Source of the DNA: a virus
Lineage: Duplodnaviria; Caudoviricetes
Virus record (IMG/VR): IMGVR_UViG_3300020434_000055
Length of the DNA stretch: 64,000 nt
Strand: one strand, 5' to 3'
Made by a program: the position numbers and the translations under genes. Each line of letters starts with the position of its first letter. Position 1 is the stretch's first letter. Below are positions 4,994-63,949 of the stretch, in pieces. The notes under the pieces are model-generated. The model saw only the letters and a program-made list of their open reading frames with translations, was not told the DNA's origin and ran no database searches.

Positions 4994-5022
4994 TTGACAT
5001 ATCAATAAAAAGATGTTATAAA
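4994..5022 (+). promoter_or_regulatory. Sigma70-type promoter of tmRNA gene
   Basis: TTGACA(4994)-17 bp-TATAAA(5017) with TG extended -10. Confidence 0.85.
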
Positions 5023-5028
5023 TATTAC

Positions 5029-5688: not shown

Positions 5689-5763
5689 AAATCAACACTT
5701 TTTAACTATTGATTTATGTTTCAAAATCTGCTATTATAGTAGTATATAAATATAGTTAATATA

Positions 5764-12518: not shown

Positions 12519-12554
12519 ATAGGTGGGGGCGTTTTTTAATACGCCCTAACCTAT
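12519..12554 (+). terminator. Hairpin between hsp20 and clpS
   Basis: ATAGGT.GGGCGT-loop-ACGCCC.ACCTAT; overlaps a TATAAATA late promoter at 12552. Confidence 0.5.
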
Positions 12555-12565
12555 AAATACTTAAA

Positions 12566-55923: not shown

Positions 55924-56428
55924 ACACCCAAATGAATGGTTAGAGAAAAAAATAAAACCTTTCGACTGGGAAAATTTAGATTCAGAAAAAATTGAACAAG
56001 AAATGGTCTCTATTATGGAGGATAATAAAGGTATAGGTCTGGCGGCAAATCAAGTTGGGTTAGATGCAAGAGTTGTAACAATATTGCCAAAAAATATAAA
56101 AGGAATTACTAAATCTTTTGCAATTATTGATCCTACAATAGAACAAATAAGTCTTAATAAAATTGAAGATGTTGAAGGATGTCTTAGTTTTCCAAAATTA
56201 TGGTTAAAAGTTAGAAGACCAGACAAGGTTACTGTAAAATTTCTTGACAGTAAACAAAAAGAGTGTATAATGGACTTTAGTGGTTATGATGCAAGATGTT
56301 TTCTTCACGAATATGATCATCTGGAAGGAATAACGTTCGTGAGTCCTTTACGAGTTAGCAAATTAAGATTAGATATGGCAATAAAAAGACAACAAAAAAT
56401 AATAAAAGAGGAACAACAAAATGGTTGA
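55910..56428 (+). CDS. def: Peptide deformylase
   Basis: GIGLAANQVG, EGCLSFP, HEYDHLEG. Confidence 0.96.
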   Translation: MELIKHPNEWLEKKIKPFDWENLDSEKIEQEMVSIMEDNKGIGLAANQVGLDARVVTILPKNIKGITKSFAIIDPTIEQISLNKIEDVEGCLSFPKLWLKVRRPDKVTVKFLDSKQKECIMDFSGYDARCFLHEYDHLEGITFVSPLRVSKLRLDMAIKRQQKIIKEEQQNG

Positions 56429-59053: not shown

Positions 59054-59380
59054 ATGAAAATTAACGAATTTACAACTGTAGACAAACCCAAGTTAGATTT
59101 TAACTTATTAGATGATATACATTATTTCATGATTAATGATTCTAGCTTTTATAGAAAACATTACTTTCCAACAGTAGATAAAGCCAAACAAACAGGCGAC
59201 AATTCAACCTTACAACCTCTGATCGATACAGCAATTAATGAATATTTTAAAACATTTAGATTAAAAATGAGACCTGAAAATGTAATTAAAGATGAAGACA
59301 AACAATCATTAAAACAAAGAATTATAGACAGTGAAAAAGAAGAAGACGATATCGAGAAAGAGCGGAAAGAGAATGAATAA
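59054..59380 (+). CDS. Putative internal head protein
   Basis: N-terminus MKINEF; FYRKHYFP motif. Confidence 0.55.
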   Translation: MKINEFTTVDKPKLDFNLLDDIHYFMINDSSFYRKHYFPTVDKAKQTGDNSTLQPLIDTAINEYFKTFRLKMRPENVIKDEDKQSLKQRIIDSEKEEDDIEKERKENE

Positions 59381-59949
59381 TGAGATTAAAGGAGTTTACT
59401 GAAGCATTATCTAAACCTGCATCTTTCGCCTTTGGTCGAATGAATCCTCCTACCTTAGGACATCAAAAATTAGTTAATACTATCCAATCTCAACCCGGCG
59501 ATCATTTTTTATTTTTAACGCATACTCAAAATGCAAAGACAGATCCTCTAGCATTTGCTGAAAAATTGTTTTTTACTCAACAAATGTTTGCAGGAATTAA
59601 AATAGGTGACCCTAAAGTCAGAACAATAATCCAAGCCATGCAAAAATTAGAACAAATGGGGTATACCGATATCACATATGTGGCTGGTAGCGACAGGGTC
59701 AATGAATTTAGAGAATTATTAAACAAATATAATGGTCAAGAATATACATTTGATTCTATTAAAACCGTAAATGCAGGTACTAGAGACCCTGATTCACAAG
59801 GTGTAGAAGGTATGAGTGCAAGAATGGTAAGAGATTTAGCGGCTAGAGGTGATAAAATTGCTTTTATGAAAGCAATACCAGGTGATAGAAAATTAGCAAC
59901 CATGATGTATGACAAACTTAGAAGTAAATTAAATGTACCAGCAATTTAA
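59380..59949 (+). CDS. Cytidyltransferase-like nucleotidyltransferase (HxGH superfamily)
   Basis: SFAFGRMNPPTLGHQKL, DPLAFAEK, YVAGSDRV, AGTRDPDSQGVEGMSA. Confidence 0.85.
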   Translation: MRLKEFTEALSKPASFAFGRMNPPTLGHQKLVNTIQSQPGDHFLFLTHTQNAKTDPLAFAEKLFFTQQMFAGIKIGDPKVRTIIQAMQKLEQMGYTDITYVAGSDRVNEFRELLNKYNGQEYTFDSIKTVNAGTRDPDSQGVEGMSARMVRDLAARGDKIAFMKAIPGDRKLATMMYDKLRSKLNVPAI

Positions 59950-59960
59950 TAAATATACAT

Positions 59961-60167
59961 ATGGAAATAGCGAAATTAAAAAAATTAGCAGGCATTACGG
60001 ACTCAGAGGCACCCTCAGAAACACAACTTAATATTAGTCATACAGCACAGGCATTAAAAGACAGAGAAAAGGCATTAGGTTTAAGACCCGGTGATCCAGG
60101 CTGGTTTAAATTATGGTTTAGTAGACCATTAATGCAACAAAGTAAAGGATATAAAAGTAGAAAATGA
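59961..60167 (+). CDS. Small late protein
   Basis: MEIAKLKKLAGI...PGDPGWFKLWF. Confidence 0.65.
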   Translation: MEIAKLKKLAGITDSEAPSETQLNISHTAQALKDREKALGLRPGDPGWFKLWFSRPLMQQSKGYKSRK

Positions 60168-62290
60168 ACTTACGTGAATTCATAAAAGATTTTAGAGTTA
60201 ATTCACTAGCTGAATTTAGACAAGTTGTTACTCCACGAGATGAAAAACATTATAGAGAATTAATGAAACATCTTCATGCTATGGAATTAGACCCTGTAAA
60301 TAGAAGTGATCCTGATCTTATGGGAGAAATCCGAAGAAGAAGAATGGAATTAAGAGGCTGGGCTGAAAAAAATATAAAAAGAGAAGATACTGTTAAAGAA
60401 GTTCCAGGAATGACACAATCGGCTAATACACAGGCGGCAGGTGTGAATCATTTAGGATTACCATCAGATGATGTAGTAAAAGAAGATAACGAAGAATTTT
60501 CTTTTGGTCAAATAGCAAAAGCAAAAGCATATGCTAAATTATATGTAGATAATTATACAACCGCTGTAAAAAATATTGAAAGAATTGCAAAAGGATTATC
60601 AAGTCATCCAGATGTTGCTGATGCATTAAGAAAAGCAAACGAAGATGACGAACCACAAATAACAGATTATACAGATGTAGTTTCACCAGAAGAAATGGCA
60701 AAAATATGGTATTATGATGAAAAACACGGTAGAGCTAAAGACTTACAAGCACGATTTAAAACTTGGCAAGATTATTACAAGTCAGATGACTTTGAATTAG
60801 ATTTAGATCATTTAAGAAGTAAATTTGAAGATGACGATAAAGACGAATTAATGAAAAAATTTCTTGCTAAAGGTGGTAAAATTCAAAAATTAAAACCAGG
60901 AATTCCTAAAGGTGCAACTCATATGGATCGAAGAGGGGATTATAAGAAAAGTGACTTTCCTAATGTAAAATTTCAAAATAGAAAAGACGTAGAAAAATCA
61001 AAAAGTAAAGCTCTAAGAAGTACACCTATAACAAGTCCAATGAGTGATGAATCAGTAAAAGAAGATTCTGAAGCAAGTTTATTAGGTGCCGCACAGGCTT
61101 CTTTAAGTCATGGATTAGAACTAGCTGATGCTGTACTTAAAGATGATAATAATATGGCAAAAGTTATATCTTCTACTATTAAAGAAAATTGGCCTCCTTT
61201 AATTGATAAAATTCAAAATGTATATAAAACTGATTCTGCAAAAGAAGAATTATCTAAAATACTAAATTTTGATAAAAAAGATTATGGATTGAAAGAAAGA
61301 ATGCCAGCATCTATTATTAAACATAAACAAAAACTTGATATGATGACTGATAAAGAATTAGCAATCAGATTTCAAGACAAAGATGAAAACACACTACGTC
61401 ATATGGCTTGGAGACATGGTTACGGTAAAATGAGTTCACACTATTGGGATAGAGTTCAAGCAGGTAAACAAGAAACAACTGAAGATTTAGATCATCTAGG
61501 ATTATCAATAAAAAAAGAAGATGATGGCGGTAGAGCTCAACAGGCATACAAATTAGCAAGAGATCAAAAAGTTGATTATGCCAATATAATGTTTCGTGGT
61601 AAAGAAATAGATCATAATAGCATAGACTATGACATGAAGGATTTTAGTGATATGATATTTGAACTACATGGAGCAAAATATATAGATGGCACACCTTTAA
61701 CTGATGAAGAATTAGAAGAATTTGAAAAAACAGATGAACTTCTTGATTGGGTTGCTGAGGATTATGCAACACAAGGAGAATCAGTTAAAGAAGAAGCACC
61801 ATTTGGAACAGGAATGGATTTAGTTAGAATGGCTGTATTTAGAAAATTTATATCAGCAGAAGAATATGTAAATTTTGCAAAAGAATTAAAAACAGCAGGT
61901 GAAGAAGTTGCTAATAGTGAACAGTATGCAGATTGGCCTGATGGAGAAGGCTTTGGTTCATCTGATGGAAACTTTGCAATTAGAGATTTAATGAGTACAG
62001 CAGGATACGAATTTGATGACAATGATACAAGTGGTAGATTTGTTGTAACTAAAATGCCAAAAAAATTACAAAAATTAGGTATAACAAATGCAAGAATGAA
62101 ACAACCTGAATTACCTCTTAAACAAGAAGGGGATAGTGATGGAGTCCAACCTGCTGATTTAAAAAGAATGGGTCTTTCAACTCCTAAAGCATATGTTCAT
62201 AAAGATGGACGAACAGTAATGATTAATAAAAAAGATTTACAAAAATATCTTAAAAAAGGGTGGCAAAAATCTAGTTTAAGAGCAGAGTAA
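60164..62290 (+). CDS. Large modular acidic protein, putative internal head polyprotein
   Basis: MNLREFI N-terminus; unrelated small modules separated by (S/T/V)VKE-type sites. Confidence 0.65.
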   Translation: MNLREFIKDFRVNSLAEFRQVVTPRDEKHYRELMKHLHAMELDPVNRSDPDLMGEIRRRRMELRGWAEKNIKREDTVKEVPGMTQSANTQAAGVNHLGLPSDDVVKEDNEEFSFGQIAKAKAYAKLYVDNYTTAVKNIERIAKGLSSHPDVADALRKANEDDEPQITDYTDVVSPEEMAKIWYYDEKHGRAKDLQARFKTWQDYYKSDDFELDLDHLRSKFEDDDKDELMKKFLAKGGKIQKLKPGIPKGATHMDRRGDYKKSDFPNVKFQNRKDVEKSKSKALRSTPITSPMSDESVKEDSEASLLGAAQASLSHGLELADAVLKDDNNMAKVISSTIKENWPPLIDKIQNVYKTDSAKEELSKILNFDKKDYGLKERMPASIIKHKQKLDMMTDKELAIRFQDKDENTLRHMAWRHGYGKMSSHYWDRVQAGKQETTEDLDHLGLSIKKEDDGGRAQQAYKLARDQKVDYANIMFRGKEIDHNSIDYDMKDFSDMIFELHGAKYIDGTPLTDEELEEFEKTDELLDWVAEDYATQGESVKEEAPFGTGMDLVRMAVFRKFISAEEYVNFAKELKTAGEEVANSEQYADWPDGEGFGSSDGNFAIRDLMSTAGYEFDDNDTSGRFVVTKMPKKLQKLGITNARMKQPELPLKQEGDSDGVQPADLKRMGLSTPKAYVHKDGRTVMINKKDLQKYLKKGWQKSSLRAE

Positions 62291-63231
62291 TGAAAATAAG
62301 ACAATTCTACATAGCATCTGAAGATACTTTAACAAAAGGACAAAAAAAGAAAAAAGAAAAATATGTTAAAGGCATGAAGAAAGGTGCAAAAGATTTCAAA
62401 AAAAGATACGGTGACGACTATAAATCAGTAATGTATGCTACTGCTACAAAAATGGCTAAAGAAAACACAAATGAAAGTCCTATAGAACAAGATAGAGATA
62501 ATCCTATTGCAAAACCATATGTAGATACTCCAGAGTGGAAAGCTCTACACGATATGGATGATAAAATTATTGACGCATACATCAAACATAAAGAAGAATC
62601 AGTTGAAGAAGATCAAATTCCAAGTAATATGCCAGGTGGCATTGGAGACTATGCTAGAGAAATAGCAACAGGCAAACTTGTAAGAATAGTTGACTATACA
62701 GATGATGACGAAGGCATTTACACAATATCTTACGGTGATGGTAAAGGTGAAACAGATGTAGTAGCGAAAGATTTAAAATTTAAGGACCCTACTTCTTATT
62801 GGTCCGATGAAGAAACAACAGAAGGAGCTAATTTAAATCCTTATTTCTTAACTAAAAAAGAATTTGATGGTAAAATGAGAGACGTTTGGGATTTTCCAGA
62901 TGGCTATGGAGATGAAGACGACAGTCCTTATCTTTCAAACTTTTCAATGAGAGATGTATTAAATTCATTAGGTTTAGATCCTAATTTCGAAGATGCAGGA
63001 CCTATTGAAATTAATAAATTTATTAATATTACAACTCAATGGTTAAAGAAAAATATTAATAAACCTTCAGCAGAAGTTCCTACAACAGTTGATAAAAGTG
63101 GGGGCGGTGCTACAATGATAGGTGGTGGAAAACCAGAAGGTTACGAAAATAAAGTCATAATGGGATTCAATCAATTCGCACGTAGTATCAAACAAAAATA
63201 TCCTAAAGTTACGCATATAGGAATTGCGTAA
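62290..63231 (+). CDS. Modular protein, putative internal head protein
   Basis: MKIRQF N-terminus; KKEKYVKGMKK...YGDDYKSVMYATATKMAK module; ESVEE/ETTE linkers. Confidence 0.6.
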   Translation: MKIRQFYIASEDTLTKGQKKKKEKYVKGMKKGAKDFKKRYGDDYKSVMYATATKMAKENTNESPIEQDRDNPIAKPYVDTPEWKALHDMDDKIIDAYIKHKEESVEEDQIPSNMPGGIGDYAREIATGKLVRIVDYTDDDEGIYTISYGDGKGETDVVAKDLKFKDPTSYWSDEETTEGANLNPYFLTKKEFDGKMRDVWDFPDGYGDEDDSPYLSNFSMRDVLNSLGLDPNFEDAGPIEINKFINITTQWLKKNINKPSAEVPTTVDKSGGGATMIGGGKPEGYENKVIMGFNQFARSIKQKYPKVTHIGIA

Positions 63232-63237
63232 AATTCA

Positions 63238-63804
63238 ATGTTACTTACAGAAATAGATGGTCAAGAGCCAGTGAACAAACCAATAGTCTATGTAGATTTG
63301 GATGGTGTATTAGCAGACTTCTTTGGTGGAGTAGAAAAACTATATGGTGTTGATCATTGGAAACAATTAGTATCAGATAAAACTAAAGATCTTAAAATGG
63401 AAGTAATAAACAAAATTCAAGGTACAGATTTTTTTGCAACATTACCTAAATTCCCAACTGCTGATCAATTACTTGCTATTGTTAAAGAATATACAGGGGG
63501 CACATTTTCAATTTTATCATCTCCTTTAAGAGGTGATCACCAAAATTCTGCAAATCATAAAAAGACTTGGATAAGTCAAAATATAGAAGCACCTGCTGAA
63601 ATTATTATTACTGGACGGAAAGAATCATATGCAAAAGACAAAAGAACAGGTACTTCTAATATACTAATTGATGATAGACCTAAAAATCTTGATCGCTTTA
63701 AGGCGTCAGGAGGTTATGGTATTTTATATCAAGCTAATAGAAATCCGGTAAGTAAAGTAAAAATGGAGTTGGAGCAATATGCCAAAATTTACGGGGATCA
63801 ATAG
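63238..63804 (+). CDS. HAD-family 5'(3')-deoxyribonucleotidase-like protein
   Basis: VYVDLDGVLADF, ILSSP, KKTWI, NILIDDRPKNL...GGYGILY. Confidence 0.85.
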   Translation: MLLTEIDGQEPVNKPIVYVDLDGVLADFFGGVEKLYGVDHWKQLVSDKTKDLKMEVINKIQGTDFFATLPKFPTADQLLAIVKEYTGGTFSILSSPLRGDHQNSANHKKTWISQNIEAPAEIIITGRKESYAKDKRTGTSNILIDDRPKNLDRFKASGGYGILYQANRNPVSKVKMELEQYAKIYGDQ

Positions 63805-63949
63805 AGCTTATTCAAGCGGTAAACCTGACAAGAGATCTTCACAAGAAGAACGTGACAGATTAATGAAAGAATTCCTTGCCAAAGGTGGCAAAATACAAAA
63901 AATTAAATCTAAGATAACAAAACAAATGTTAGATAGAGGTAAATTATAA
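63779..63949 (+). CDS. Small protein with SutA-like RNAP-binding motif; not in the ORF track
   Basis: GGAG SD; MPKFTGINRAYSSGKPDKRSSQEERDRLMKEFLAKGGKIQKIKSKITKQMLDRGKL*. Confidence 0.65.
   Translation: MPKFTGINRAYSSGKPDKRSSQEERDRLMKEFLAKGGKIQKIKSKITKQMLDRGKL

What the first reader, a model, noticed from the sequence alone, without database searches (positions are those of the whole stretch)
60833..63949. Two copies of a SutA-like RNA-polymerase-binding motif
DKDELMKKFLAKGGKIQKLKP (about 60833-60900, inside the polyprotein) and EERDRLMKEFLAKGGKIQKIK (ORF 63779-63949, missed by the ORF track) are similar at DNA level. From memory they resemble the Pseudomonas SutA RNAP-binding helix (ERDALAKAMEEFL.RGGKVQEI), a factor that supports transcription in starved cells. 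Inference: an injected or late RNAP modulator for infecting dormant oligotrophic hosts.
Basis: inference. Interest (0 to 1): 0.72.

Follow-up and report, generated by a model that had tools for sequence, protein, structure and literature searches.

The report
Phage copies of SutA polymerase-docking motif
An uncultured ~355-kb marine T4-like phage carries two old, conserved copies of the short peptide that the Pseudomonas factor SutA uses to dock on RNA polymerase, but without SutA's activating acidic tail, so they more likely block or tether the host polymerase than boost it; no binding has been tested.

Summary
Six-frame translation of the window finds the motif LMK-x-FLAKGGKIQK exactly twice: at residues 224-249 of the 708-aa ORF (60164-62290) and in a real 56-aa gene (63779-63949).

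- Pfam SutA-RBD and NCBIfam SutA match both copies, but below their cut-offs.
- A profile of 23 phage homologues finds the solved SutA chain.
- Profile-profile comparison with 47 true SutA sequences gives 97% probability (score 57.8, against a maximum of 18.8 in 100 column shuffles).
- Nine of the ten residues shown by mutagenesis to contact the RNA polymerase beta protrusion are kept in the small protein.

Both copies lack SutA's acidic N-tail and its C-tail. [quoted passage not shown] I therefore read them as polymerase-docking peptides that inhibit or anchor, not as dormancy activators.

The large-protein copy is one cassette in a shuffled multi-cassette protein. The cassette borders coincide with V/L-K-E sites of the kind the T4 prohead protease cuts. 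Virion delivery is possible but unproven.

A complex prediction gave only weak support. The scan found the same mini-SutA before in a related phage, and I found no paper describing it.

The parts
63779..63949 (+). 56-aa basic (pI 10.5) 'mini-SutA' gene. It overlaps the end of the NT5C gene by 26 nt in another frame.
   Evidence: ORF; 22 homologues of 54-59 aa; conserved synteny; dN/dS about 0.3; Pfam PF20661 23.7 bits, E 3e-5; model shows a helix at 22-34 with flexible tails
63845..63922 (+). Copy B of the SutA-RBD-like motif (residues 23-48): helix, GG turn, short strand
   Evidence: Aligns to SutA residues 55-89 with one 3-residue gap, 15/35 identical, E 3e-8; hhalign 97.3% against true SutA
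63771..63774 (+). GGAG ribosome-binding site of the 56-aa gene
   Evidence: Read directly from the sequence
60164..62290 (+). 708-aa multi-cassette protein. Its cassettes occur in different orders in homologues.
   Evidence: 184 homologues, most sharing only cassettes 1-78, 376-440 and 659-708 in permuted order
60833..60910 (+). Copy A of the SutA-RBD-like motif (residues 224-249 of the 708-aa protein)
   Evidence: Pfam PF20661 17.8 bits, E 2e-3; 43 of 119 homologues of the large protein match the motif pattern; a profile of 35 distinct instances of the cassette gives hhalign 95.9% against true SutA
60485..61063 (+). Residues 108-300, the piece between two V-K-E sites that contains copy A. The N-half is acidic (pI 4.7) and the C-half basic (pI 9.95).
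   Evidence: Cleavage is inferred, not shown.
60392..60400 (+). V-K-E linker (residues 77-79) at a cassette border
   Evidence: Homology break points end at 75-79
60476..60484 (+). V-K-E linker (residues 105-107)
61055..61063 (+). V-K-E linker (residues 298-300) that closes the SutA-like cassette. It is conserved as SDES-V/A-x-E in homologues.
61289..61297 (+). L-K-E site (residues 376-378) at the start of the most widely shared cassette
   Evidence: HSP starts cluster at 376-380
61784..61792 (+). V-K-E linker (residues 541-543)
   Evidence: HSP ends cluster at 545-550

Best explanation
Both peptides are diverged homologues of the RNA-polymerase-binding domain of SutA: a helix, a GG turn, and a short strand that adds to the beta-protrusion sheet.

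The 56-aa protein is a stand-alone, strongly basic 'mini-SutA'. It keeps the docking surface but has neither SutA's acidic N-tail nor its C-tail. I infer that it sits in the hydrophobic groove of the host RNAP beta protrusion (beta1). Because the activating tail is absent, it most likely acts like tail-less SutA: it lowers initiation by the host holoenzyme, displaces a host SutA if there is one, or serves as an anchor for its own conserved N-terminal (GINRxY) and C-terminal (ITKQMLxRGK) segments.

The second copy is one cassette of a large modular protein and would give that protein, or a fragment cut from it, the same docking ability.

Shown: the sequence relationship, conservation of both copies, and the absence of the tails. 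Inferred: binding to RNAP and the direction of the effect.
For: 1. Family matches fall in the right segment. Pfam SutA-RBD scores E 3e-5 (copy B) and 2e-3 (copy A); NCBIfam SutA scores E 7.8e-5, aligned to SutA positions 63-92. Many homologues carry precomputed PF20661 labels.
2. A profile of the phage family finds the solved SutA chain 7F0R_G at residues 63-92, E 2e-4.
3. hhalign against 47 true SutA sequences fetched from Pseudomonas, Halopseudomonas, Spongiibacteraceae and others gives 97.3%, score 57.8. One hundred column-shuffled controls gave mean 9.4 and maximum 18.8; the reversed alignment gave 11.2. The cassette profile gives 95.9%.
4. There is a bridging sequence. Phage homologue P0002 against a Sansalvadorimonas SutA-family protein gives 24/39 identities, E 1e-11. 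That protein scores 68 bits on the SutA model, and the Pseudomonas sequence used scores 164.9 bits against a cut-off of 145.
5. Ten SutA residues abolish beta-protrusion binding when mutated: K60, R64, L67, M71, F74, L75, G78, G79, V81 and I84 (PMC9300723). Copy B keeps R, L, M, F, L, G, G, I (for V81) and I, which is 9 of 10 in the alignment.
6. The AlphaFold model shows a central helix at 22-34 (pLDDT about 86) with flexible tails, as in SutA.
7. Both copies are under purifying selection and conserved in relatives.
8. [quoted passage not shown]
9. The complex prediction with P. aeruginosa RpoB residues 1-520 as a stand-in gave weak support: score 0.48, best of 3 controls 0.00. The mark was reached by 58 of 80 solved complexes and 2 of 110 mismatched pairs. 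At 0.60 or under it was reached by only 7 of those 80 solved complexes, and by both mismatches that passed. The runs agree in at least 79% of contacts and the partner's pLDDT is at least 61. A like complex (7XL3) has been solved, so the pass may come from memory and shows likeness only.
10. As a specificity control, PF20661 gave no match at E<=0.01 in two cyanophages and a Xanthomonas jumbo phage, and matched in 1 of 14 control genomes. All five related phage records matched at E 2e-4 to 6e-7.
Against: - Both copies score below the curated cut-offs: Pfam 23.7 and 17.8 bits against 29.3; NCBIfam 23.5 against 145.
- The shared segment is only about 25-35 residues, and helix-GG-strand is a common structural transition. 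De novo TIM barrels scored as high as SutA in the PDB search because of repeated KKGGDI segments.
- Relative to SutA the helix lacks three residues, which shifts the upstream contact residues. K60 is not kept.
- The host is unknown, and SutA is reported only from the Pseudomonadales-Oceanospirillales clade. SutA had no effect in E. coli, so the groove is lineage-specific.
- No binding or transcription experiment exists.
- The complex prediction is weak and used a foreign polymerase.
Confidence: 0.55

Rival explanations
1. One reading: a SutA-like activator that keeps transcription going in starved or dormant oligotrophic hosts so that the phage can replicate.
For: The docking motif is SutA-like. 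In the window's own 708-aa protein, the 25 residues just before the helix are 44% D/E, and residues 108-224 have pI 4.7. That is a faint echo of SutA's acidic-tail-plus-RBD layout.
Against: The 22 residues before the helix in the 56-aa protein are net basic (five K/R, one D). [quoted passage not shown] The acidic stretch before copy A is not conserved: most cassette homologues have EKKAERDAL preceded by a mixed-charge segment. Nothing here bears on host dormancy.
Confidence: 0.1
2. A tether rather than a regulator. The motif is only an anchor that brings other parts to the polymerase: the other cassettes of an uncleaved 708-aa protein, or partners bound by the conserved tails of the 56-aa protein. 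The effect would then lie in what is recruited.
For: Copy A is embedded among unrelated cassettes. The 56-aa family has invariant residues outside the RBD: I7, R9, Y11, T47, K48 and K55. Earlier scan notes describe SutA-like anchors fused to DNA-binding domains in other phages; I did not check these.
Against: No function is known for any neighbouring cassette: Pfam gives nothing. The cassette borders look like cleavage sites, which would separate the anchor from its cargo.
Confidence: 0.15
3. Homologous peptide, different target. The helix-GG-strand module has been re-aimed at another protein (phage or host), or at nucleic acid, for example as a basic internal head protein.
For: Both contexts are very basic (pI 10.5 and 9.95). 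Ninety-three representative clusters of small basic proteins carry the motif with varied tails. The helix carries a three-residue deletion.
Against: The residues kept are precisely those that contact the beta protrusion in SutA. Conservation is concentrated on the hydrophobic face plus GG, not on the basic residues.
Confidence: 0.15
4. Chance or convergent resemblance of a short, common structural motif with no shared function.
For: The match is short and below curated thresholds. De novo designed TIM barrels score similarly in the PDB search. PF20661 matched in 7 of 14 control genomes at E<=1.
Against: The profile-profile score is about 3 times the best of 100 shuffles. The similarity extends beyond the core (ERD-x-L before it, PSNVT after it), with 24/39 identity to a bacterial SutA-family protein. 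At E<=0.01 only 1 of 14 control genomes matched.
Confidence: 0.05

Closest known systems
SutA of Pseudomonas aeruginosa (NCBIfam NF041490; Pfam PF20661 SutA-RBD; PDB 7XL3, 7XL4, 7F0R)
   Same: Central helix, GG turn and short strand. Nine of the ten mutationally defined beta-protrusion contact residues are kept. Flexible flanks.
   Different: No D/E-rich N-tail or wedge-loop context, and no ADPPKKP...YGSRPI C-tail. Three residues shorter in the helix. Net basic. Encoded by a phage, in two copies, one inside a multi-cassette protein. Scores below the family cut-offs.
SutA delta-N variant (Bergkessel et al., bioRxiv 10.1101/423384) and natural bacterial forms without the N-tail (for example the Sansalvadorimonas protein in L152), plus the basic RBD-only small proteins seen in Cellvibrionaceae and other marine Gammaproteobacteria (L095, L117, L123, L146), possibly related to the PFL_1563 family (NF058628)
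   Same: RBD without the acidic tail. The engineered form inhibits transcription. The bacterial short forms show that this architecture exists in nature.
   Different: The phage proteins have their own conserved N- and C-terminal segments. The function of the bacterial short forms is also untested. I did not scan the four RBD-only proteins against NF058628; that model was seen only as a weak, below-cut-off hit on the phage and SutA proteins.
Phage T4 Alt and the internal proteins IPI-III (capsid-targeted, cut by gp21, ejected with the DNA)
   Same: T4-like phage. Relatives encode a gp21-type prohead protease. The N-terminus M-N-L-R-E-F resembles the capsid targeting sequence type. Cassette borders fall at L/I/V-x-E sites. 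Alt is an ejected modifier of host RNAP (PMC9026906).
   Different: Alt is an ADP-ribosyltransferase, not a docking peptide. Packaging and cleavage of the 708-aa protein are not shown. Similar N-termini also occur on enzymes (NT5C, cytidylyltransferase-like) that one would not expect in a capsid.
Small phage RNAP binders (T7 Gp2, named in 10.1101/423384 as a phage protein that remodels RNAP and inhibits RNA synthesis; Xp10 P7, T4 AsiA, Alc and RpbA, from my own knowledge)
   Same: Small phage proteins that dock on host RNAP to shut off or redirect transcription.
   Different: No sequence relation. As far as I recall they bind other sites (beta' jaw, the beta' N-terminus and beta flap, sigma region 4). 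None is derived from a host regulator's docking domain.

Membership tests
SutA-RBD domain (Pfam PF20661) | Score at or above the Pfam gathering threshold (29.3 bits) | tested here: not met
   23.7 bits (56-aa) and 17.8 bits (708-aa). Related phage records reach 19-27 bits. Several homologues carry precomputed PF20661.3 labels.
SutA-RBD domain (Pfam PF20661) | Significant profile-level similarity to the RBD of bona fide SutA | tested here: met
   hhalign gives 97.3% (small family) and 95.9% (cassette) against 47 true SutA sequences. The real score of 57.8 compares with a shuffle maximum of 18.8. PDB SutA is hit at E 2e-4. BLASTP gives E 3e-8 and 1e-11.
SutA-RBD domain (Pfam PF20661) | Conservation of the beta-protrusion interface residues K60, R64, L67, M71, F74, L75, G78, G79, V81, I84 | tested here: met
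   Copy B keeps 9 of 10 (K60 not kept; V81 replaced by I). Copy A keeps L, M, F, L, G, G, I and L, with K in place of R64. This requires a 3-residue gap in the helix.
SutA-RBD domain (Pfam PF20661) | Helix followed by a short strand, with disordered flanks | tested here: met
   The model shows a helix at 22-34 with pLDDT about 86 and low-confidence flanks. The strand is not formed in the monomer model, as expected for a strand that forms on binding.
SutA-RBD domain (Pfam PF20661) | Physical binding to the RNAP beta protrusion (beta1) | not testable with these tools
   Only a prediction with a stand-in polymerase is available: weak support, score 0.48 against best control 0.00, with the caveats.
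SutA proper (NCBIfam NF041490, equivalog) | Full-length match at or above 145 bits | tested here: not met
   23.5 and 13 bits, covering only model positions about 57-92. True SutA scores 164.9.
SutA proper (NCBIfam NF041490, equivalog) | D/E-rich disordered N-tail required for activation | tested here: not met
   Residues 1-22 of the 56-aa protein have five K/R and one D. The acidic patch before copy A is not conserved in homologues.
SutA proper (NCBIfam NF041490, equivalog) | Conserved C-tail ADPPKKPxSKYGSRPI | tested here: not met
   It is replaced by ITKQMLxRGK-F/L in the small family, and by PxGxxAYKGKxLKP... in the cassette.
T4-type capsid-targeted, gp21-processed ejected proteins | N-terminal capsid targeting sequence and L/I-x-E cleavage sites, in a phage that has a gp21-type protease | tested here: inconclusive
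   Peptidase_S77 is present in 2 of 5 related partial records. V/L-K-E sites coincide with cassette borders. In 24 of 35 distinct cassette instances the sites bracket a fragment of 62-66 aa, most often 62-63. The N-terminal likeness to the targeting sequence is by eye only. No virion proteome is available.

The most novel reading that the evidence does not exclude
The phage seizes host RNA polymerase in two stages with one borrowed docking peptide.

Stage one: the copy inside the 708-aa cassette protein is carried into the capsid by a T4-type targeting signal. The prohead protease cuts it out at the V/I-x-E linkers, giving a fragment of about 62 aa in most relatives and about 193 aa here. It is then ejected with the DNA, so the beta protrusion is occupied, and host SutA excluded, from the first seconds of infection.

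Stage two: the 56-aa gene resupplies the peptide from the genome.

The shuffled cassette proteins would then be a general delivery format for many small host-takeover peptides.
Probability: 0.15. Interest if true: 0.8.

Novelty: new variant of a known kind. Interest (0 to 1): 0.55.

Why it matters
SutA is so far described as a bacterial dormancy regulator of one gammaproteobacterial clade, with a binding site that its discoverers call distinct from those of other regulators (10.1101/423384).

The docking half turns up as a conserved, tail-less mini-protein, and again as a cassette in a modular protein, in a widespread ocean phage and in 93 representative clusters of small marine proteins. That suggests phages have repeatedly borrowed this handle on RNA polymerase.

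If binding is confirmed, three things follow:
- a new class of small phage RNAP binders that act at the beta protrusion;
- a natural version of the inhibitory delta-N SutA experiment;
- a sequence marker that may point to the host lineage of uncultured phages.

The stretch examined is held almost complete (92% or more of sampled words) in metagenomes of six studies, so the phage is abundant and widespread.

Tried and rejected
- No whole genome is held for the window, so phage-wide searches were limited to five partial related IMG/VR records.
- tblastn of the 56-aa protein and of a 107-aa relative (P0160) against 50,697 cultured-phage records found nothing, even at E 1. The low-complexity filter may be the cause. 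True SutA against the same set gave only two E 0.5 hits in an Acinetobacter phage record.
- Searching homologues of the SutA-like metagenomic protein P0226 returned only itself.
- The sigma-70 and terminator scan of 54-64 kb is at chance level: 44 sites found against 48.7 expected. No TATAAATA lies nearer than 12552. The expression class is therefore undetermined.
- RNA-library contigs from four studies cover parts of 59.1-63.8 kb, but only the first 23 nt of the 56-aa gene, and they cannot exclude DNA carry-over. I count this as no evidence of expression of the small gene.
- Pfam, PHROGs and NCBIfam give no function for the other cassettes or for the 313-aa neighbour.
- A frameshift fusion of NT5C to the 56-aa ORF was considered and set aside. 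The small family is conserved from its own Met1, has its own GGAG, and occurs free-standing elsewhere.
- Recent duplication or gene conversion between the two copies is rejected (pS 0.62).
Full report
**What is there.** The window is part of an uncultured marine T4-like jumbo phage.
- The exact 708-aa protein occurs on a 355,620-bp contig.
- The window encodes a T4 gp9/10-like baseplate protein, and related records carry a gp21-type prohead protease.
- GC content is 32%.
- Metagenomes of six studies hold 92% or more of the sampled words of the stretch.

Copy A is residues 224-249 of ORF 60164-62290. Copy B is residues 23-48 of the 56-aa ORF 63779-63949. They share 17 of 26 residues. A six-frame scan finds the GGK-I/V core nowhere else in the 64 kb.

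At DNA level they are 72% identical (82% in the core). Synonymous sites are nearly saturated (pS 0.62, pN 0.21). This is an old duplication held by selection on the peptide, not a recent DNA copy.

**The small ORF is a gene.**
- It has a GGAG 4 nt before the ATG.
- It has 22 homologues of 54-59 aa with invariant residues along the whole length.
- It sits in a fixed place directly after the NT5C-like nucleotidase gene in related contigs.
- dN/dS is about 0.3.
- The large-protein copy is likewise kept in relatives. Three of five partial related records each show two good PF20661-like matches, and a fourth shows one good and one weak match.

**Is it SutA-like?** Yes, at the level of the docking domain.
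- Pfam SutA-RBD matches copy B (23.7 bits, E 3e-5) and copy A (17.8 bits, E 2e-3). Both are below the 29.3-bit cut-off.
- The NCBIfam SutA model matches the same segment.
- A profile of the 23 small proteins finds the solved SutA chain at residues 63-92, E 2e-4. De novo TIM barrels with repeated KKGGDI segments score similarly, which is a warning that helix-GG-strand is a common motif.

To test this properly I fetched true SutA genes from bacterial genomes with a degenerate DNA pattern. I extracted 47 distinct SutA proteins and confirmed that the Pseudomonas one passes the equivalog cut-off (164.9 bits).
- hhalign of the phage family against this set gives 97.3% probability and score 57.8. One hundred column-shuffled controls gave a mean of 9.4 and a maximum of 18.8.
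- The cassette profile from the large proteins gives 95.9%. That alignment places a three-residue gap in the helix, which brings KK-x-ERDAL into register with SutA's KQKERDAL.
- Pairwise, the window's 56-aa protein aligns to SutA residues 55-89 with 15/35 identities, E 3e-8.
- A phage homologue shares 24/39 residues, including the run EFLAKGGKIQKIPSNVT, with a SutA-family protein of a Sansalvadorimonas MAG, E 1e-11.

He et al. (PMC9300723) showed that ten SutA residues are needed to bind the beta protrusion. Copy B keeps nine of them.

The monomer model shows a helix at 22-34 with flexible flanks, as SutA has.

As a specificity control, PF20661 gave nothing at E<=0.01 in two cyanophages and a Xanthomonas jumbo phage, and matched in only 1 of 14 control genomes.

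**What is missing.**
- The family cut-offs are not met.
- The equivalog features of SutA are absent. The 22 residues before the helix of the small protein are net basic rather than D/E-rich.
- The conserved SutA C-tail is replaced by ITKQMLxRGK-F/L in the small family, and by a different basic tail in the cassette.

This matters for function. [quoted passage not shown] SutA also had no effect in E. coli, so the docking site is lineage-specific.

Bacteria themselves have tail-less and RBD-only small forms.

**Most likely mechanism.** Both peptides dock on the hydrophobic groove of the host RNAP beta protrusion. Without the activating tail, the small protein most likely does one of the following:
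- lowers host-type initiation;
- excludes a host SutA;
- uses its own conserved ends as effector or recruiting elements.

Binding and the direction of the effect are inferences.

A complex prediction with P. aeruginosa RpoB 1-520 as a stand-in gave weak support: score 0.48, best of 3 controls 0.00.
- The mark was reached by 58 of 80 solved complexes and 2 of 110 mismatched pairs.
- At 0.60 or under it was reached by only 7 of those 80 solved complexes, and by both mismatches that passed.
- The runs agree in at least 79% of contacts, and the partner's pLDDT is at least 61.
- Because the SutA-RNAP complex is solved, the pass may reflect memory and shows likeness only.

**The large protein.** Its homologues share cassettes of 50-100 residues in permuted orders. 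The homology break points coincide with V/L-K-E sites at residues 77-79, 105-107, 298-300, 376-378 and 541-543.
- Across 35 distinct instances of the SutA-like cassette, 24 are bracketed by I/V/L-x-E sites 16 residues before and 46-50 after the FL/YL position. That predicts a fragment of 62-66 aa, most often 62-63, close to the size of the free-standing protein.
- In the window's own version the predicted piece is residues 108-300.
- T4 gp21 cuts after Glu in L/I-x-E. Ten N-terminal residues suffice for capsid targeting. The ejected T4 protein Alt modifies host RNAP (PMC9026906).

Virion delivery of copy A is therefore possible, but several points hold it back:
- it rests on sequence pattern alone;
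- similar N-termini occur on neighbouring enzymes;
- the conserved linkers could equally be recombination joints or flexible spacers;
- the nearest late-type TATAAATA is 40 kb upstream.

I put it at about 15%.

**Prior knowledge.** I found no paper on phage-encoded SutA-like proteins: of 20 papers holding both words, the 15 listed were not on this subject. The scan has found the same thing before on other DNA. It has a follow-up on a related ~340-360-kb phage ('mini-SutA lacking the acidic tail'), notes of the same doublet in another genome, and SutA-like anchors fused to DNA-binding domains in other phages. I reached the same reading independently and added three things: the control-backed profile comparison, the bridging bacterial sequence, and the cassette and cleavage-site analysis.

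**Verdict.** This is a new variant of a known kind, of moderate interest.

Noticed in passing
window 5017-5024, 5745-5752, 12552-12559: The T4 late-promoter octamer TATAAATA occurs only 3 times, against 15.6 expected from shuffles. Two of the three lie directly before ORF starts (5764 and 12566). This fits a motif reserved for real late promoters.
   Followed up: no
window 56244-56271: A perfect sigma-70 consensus (TTGACA, 16 nt, TATAAT; 12 of 12) lies inside the deformylase gene, about 150 nt before the clpA-like start. It is a likely host-type promoter for clpA and perhaps for the downstream cluster that holds both SutA-like copies.
   Followed up: no
window 62290-63231: The N-terminal module of the 313-aa ORF (residues about 15-65, lysine-rich, ending YATATKMAKE) matches phrog_12788 and phrog_727. 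At DNA level it matches a hypothetical gene next to the cytidylyltransferase of Synechococcus phages RN05-S and RB11-B. The protein also contains an ESVEE linker at residues 103-107, like the 708-aa protein.
   Followed up: partly
window 59380-59949: This 189-aa ORF is similar at DNA level to the 'cytidyltransferase' genes of cyanophages P-SSM4, P-RSM4 and S-TIM4. It starts with M-R-L-K-E-F, the same N-terminal pattern as its neighbours.
   Followed up: no
L095, L117, L123, L139, L146, L154 (marine Gammaproteobacteria and Cellvibrionaceae MAGs): These bacterial genomes encode 57-77-aa basic proteins that consist of little more than the SutA-RBD motif followed by a GVSGQ...RHI tail. They are natural RBD-only relatives of unknown function.
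   Followed up: no
L077 (Polaribacter MAG), L153 and L161 (Verrucomicrobiaceae MAGs): Full SutA-type genes with the YGSRPI tail sit on contigs binned to non-gammaproteobacterial MAGs. The two Verrucomicrobiaceae ones are close to a Spongiibacteraceae sequence. Mis-binning seems more likely than true presence.
   Followed up: no
window 60164-62290 and homologues P0024-P0142: The three most widely shared cassettes (residues 1-78, 376-440 and 659-708) occur together in about 90 shorter proteins of 395-612 aa, in a different order (1-78, then 659-708, then 376-440). They match no family.
   Followed up: partly
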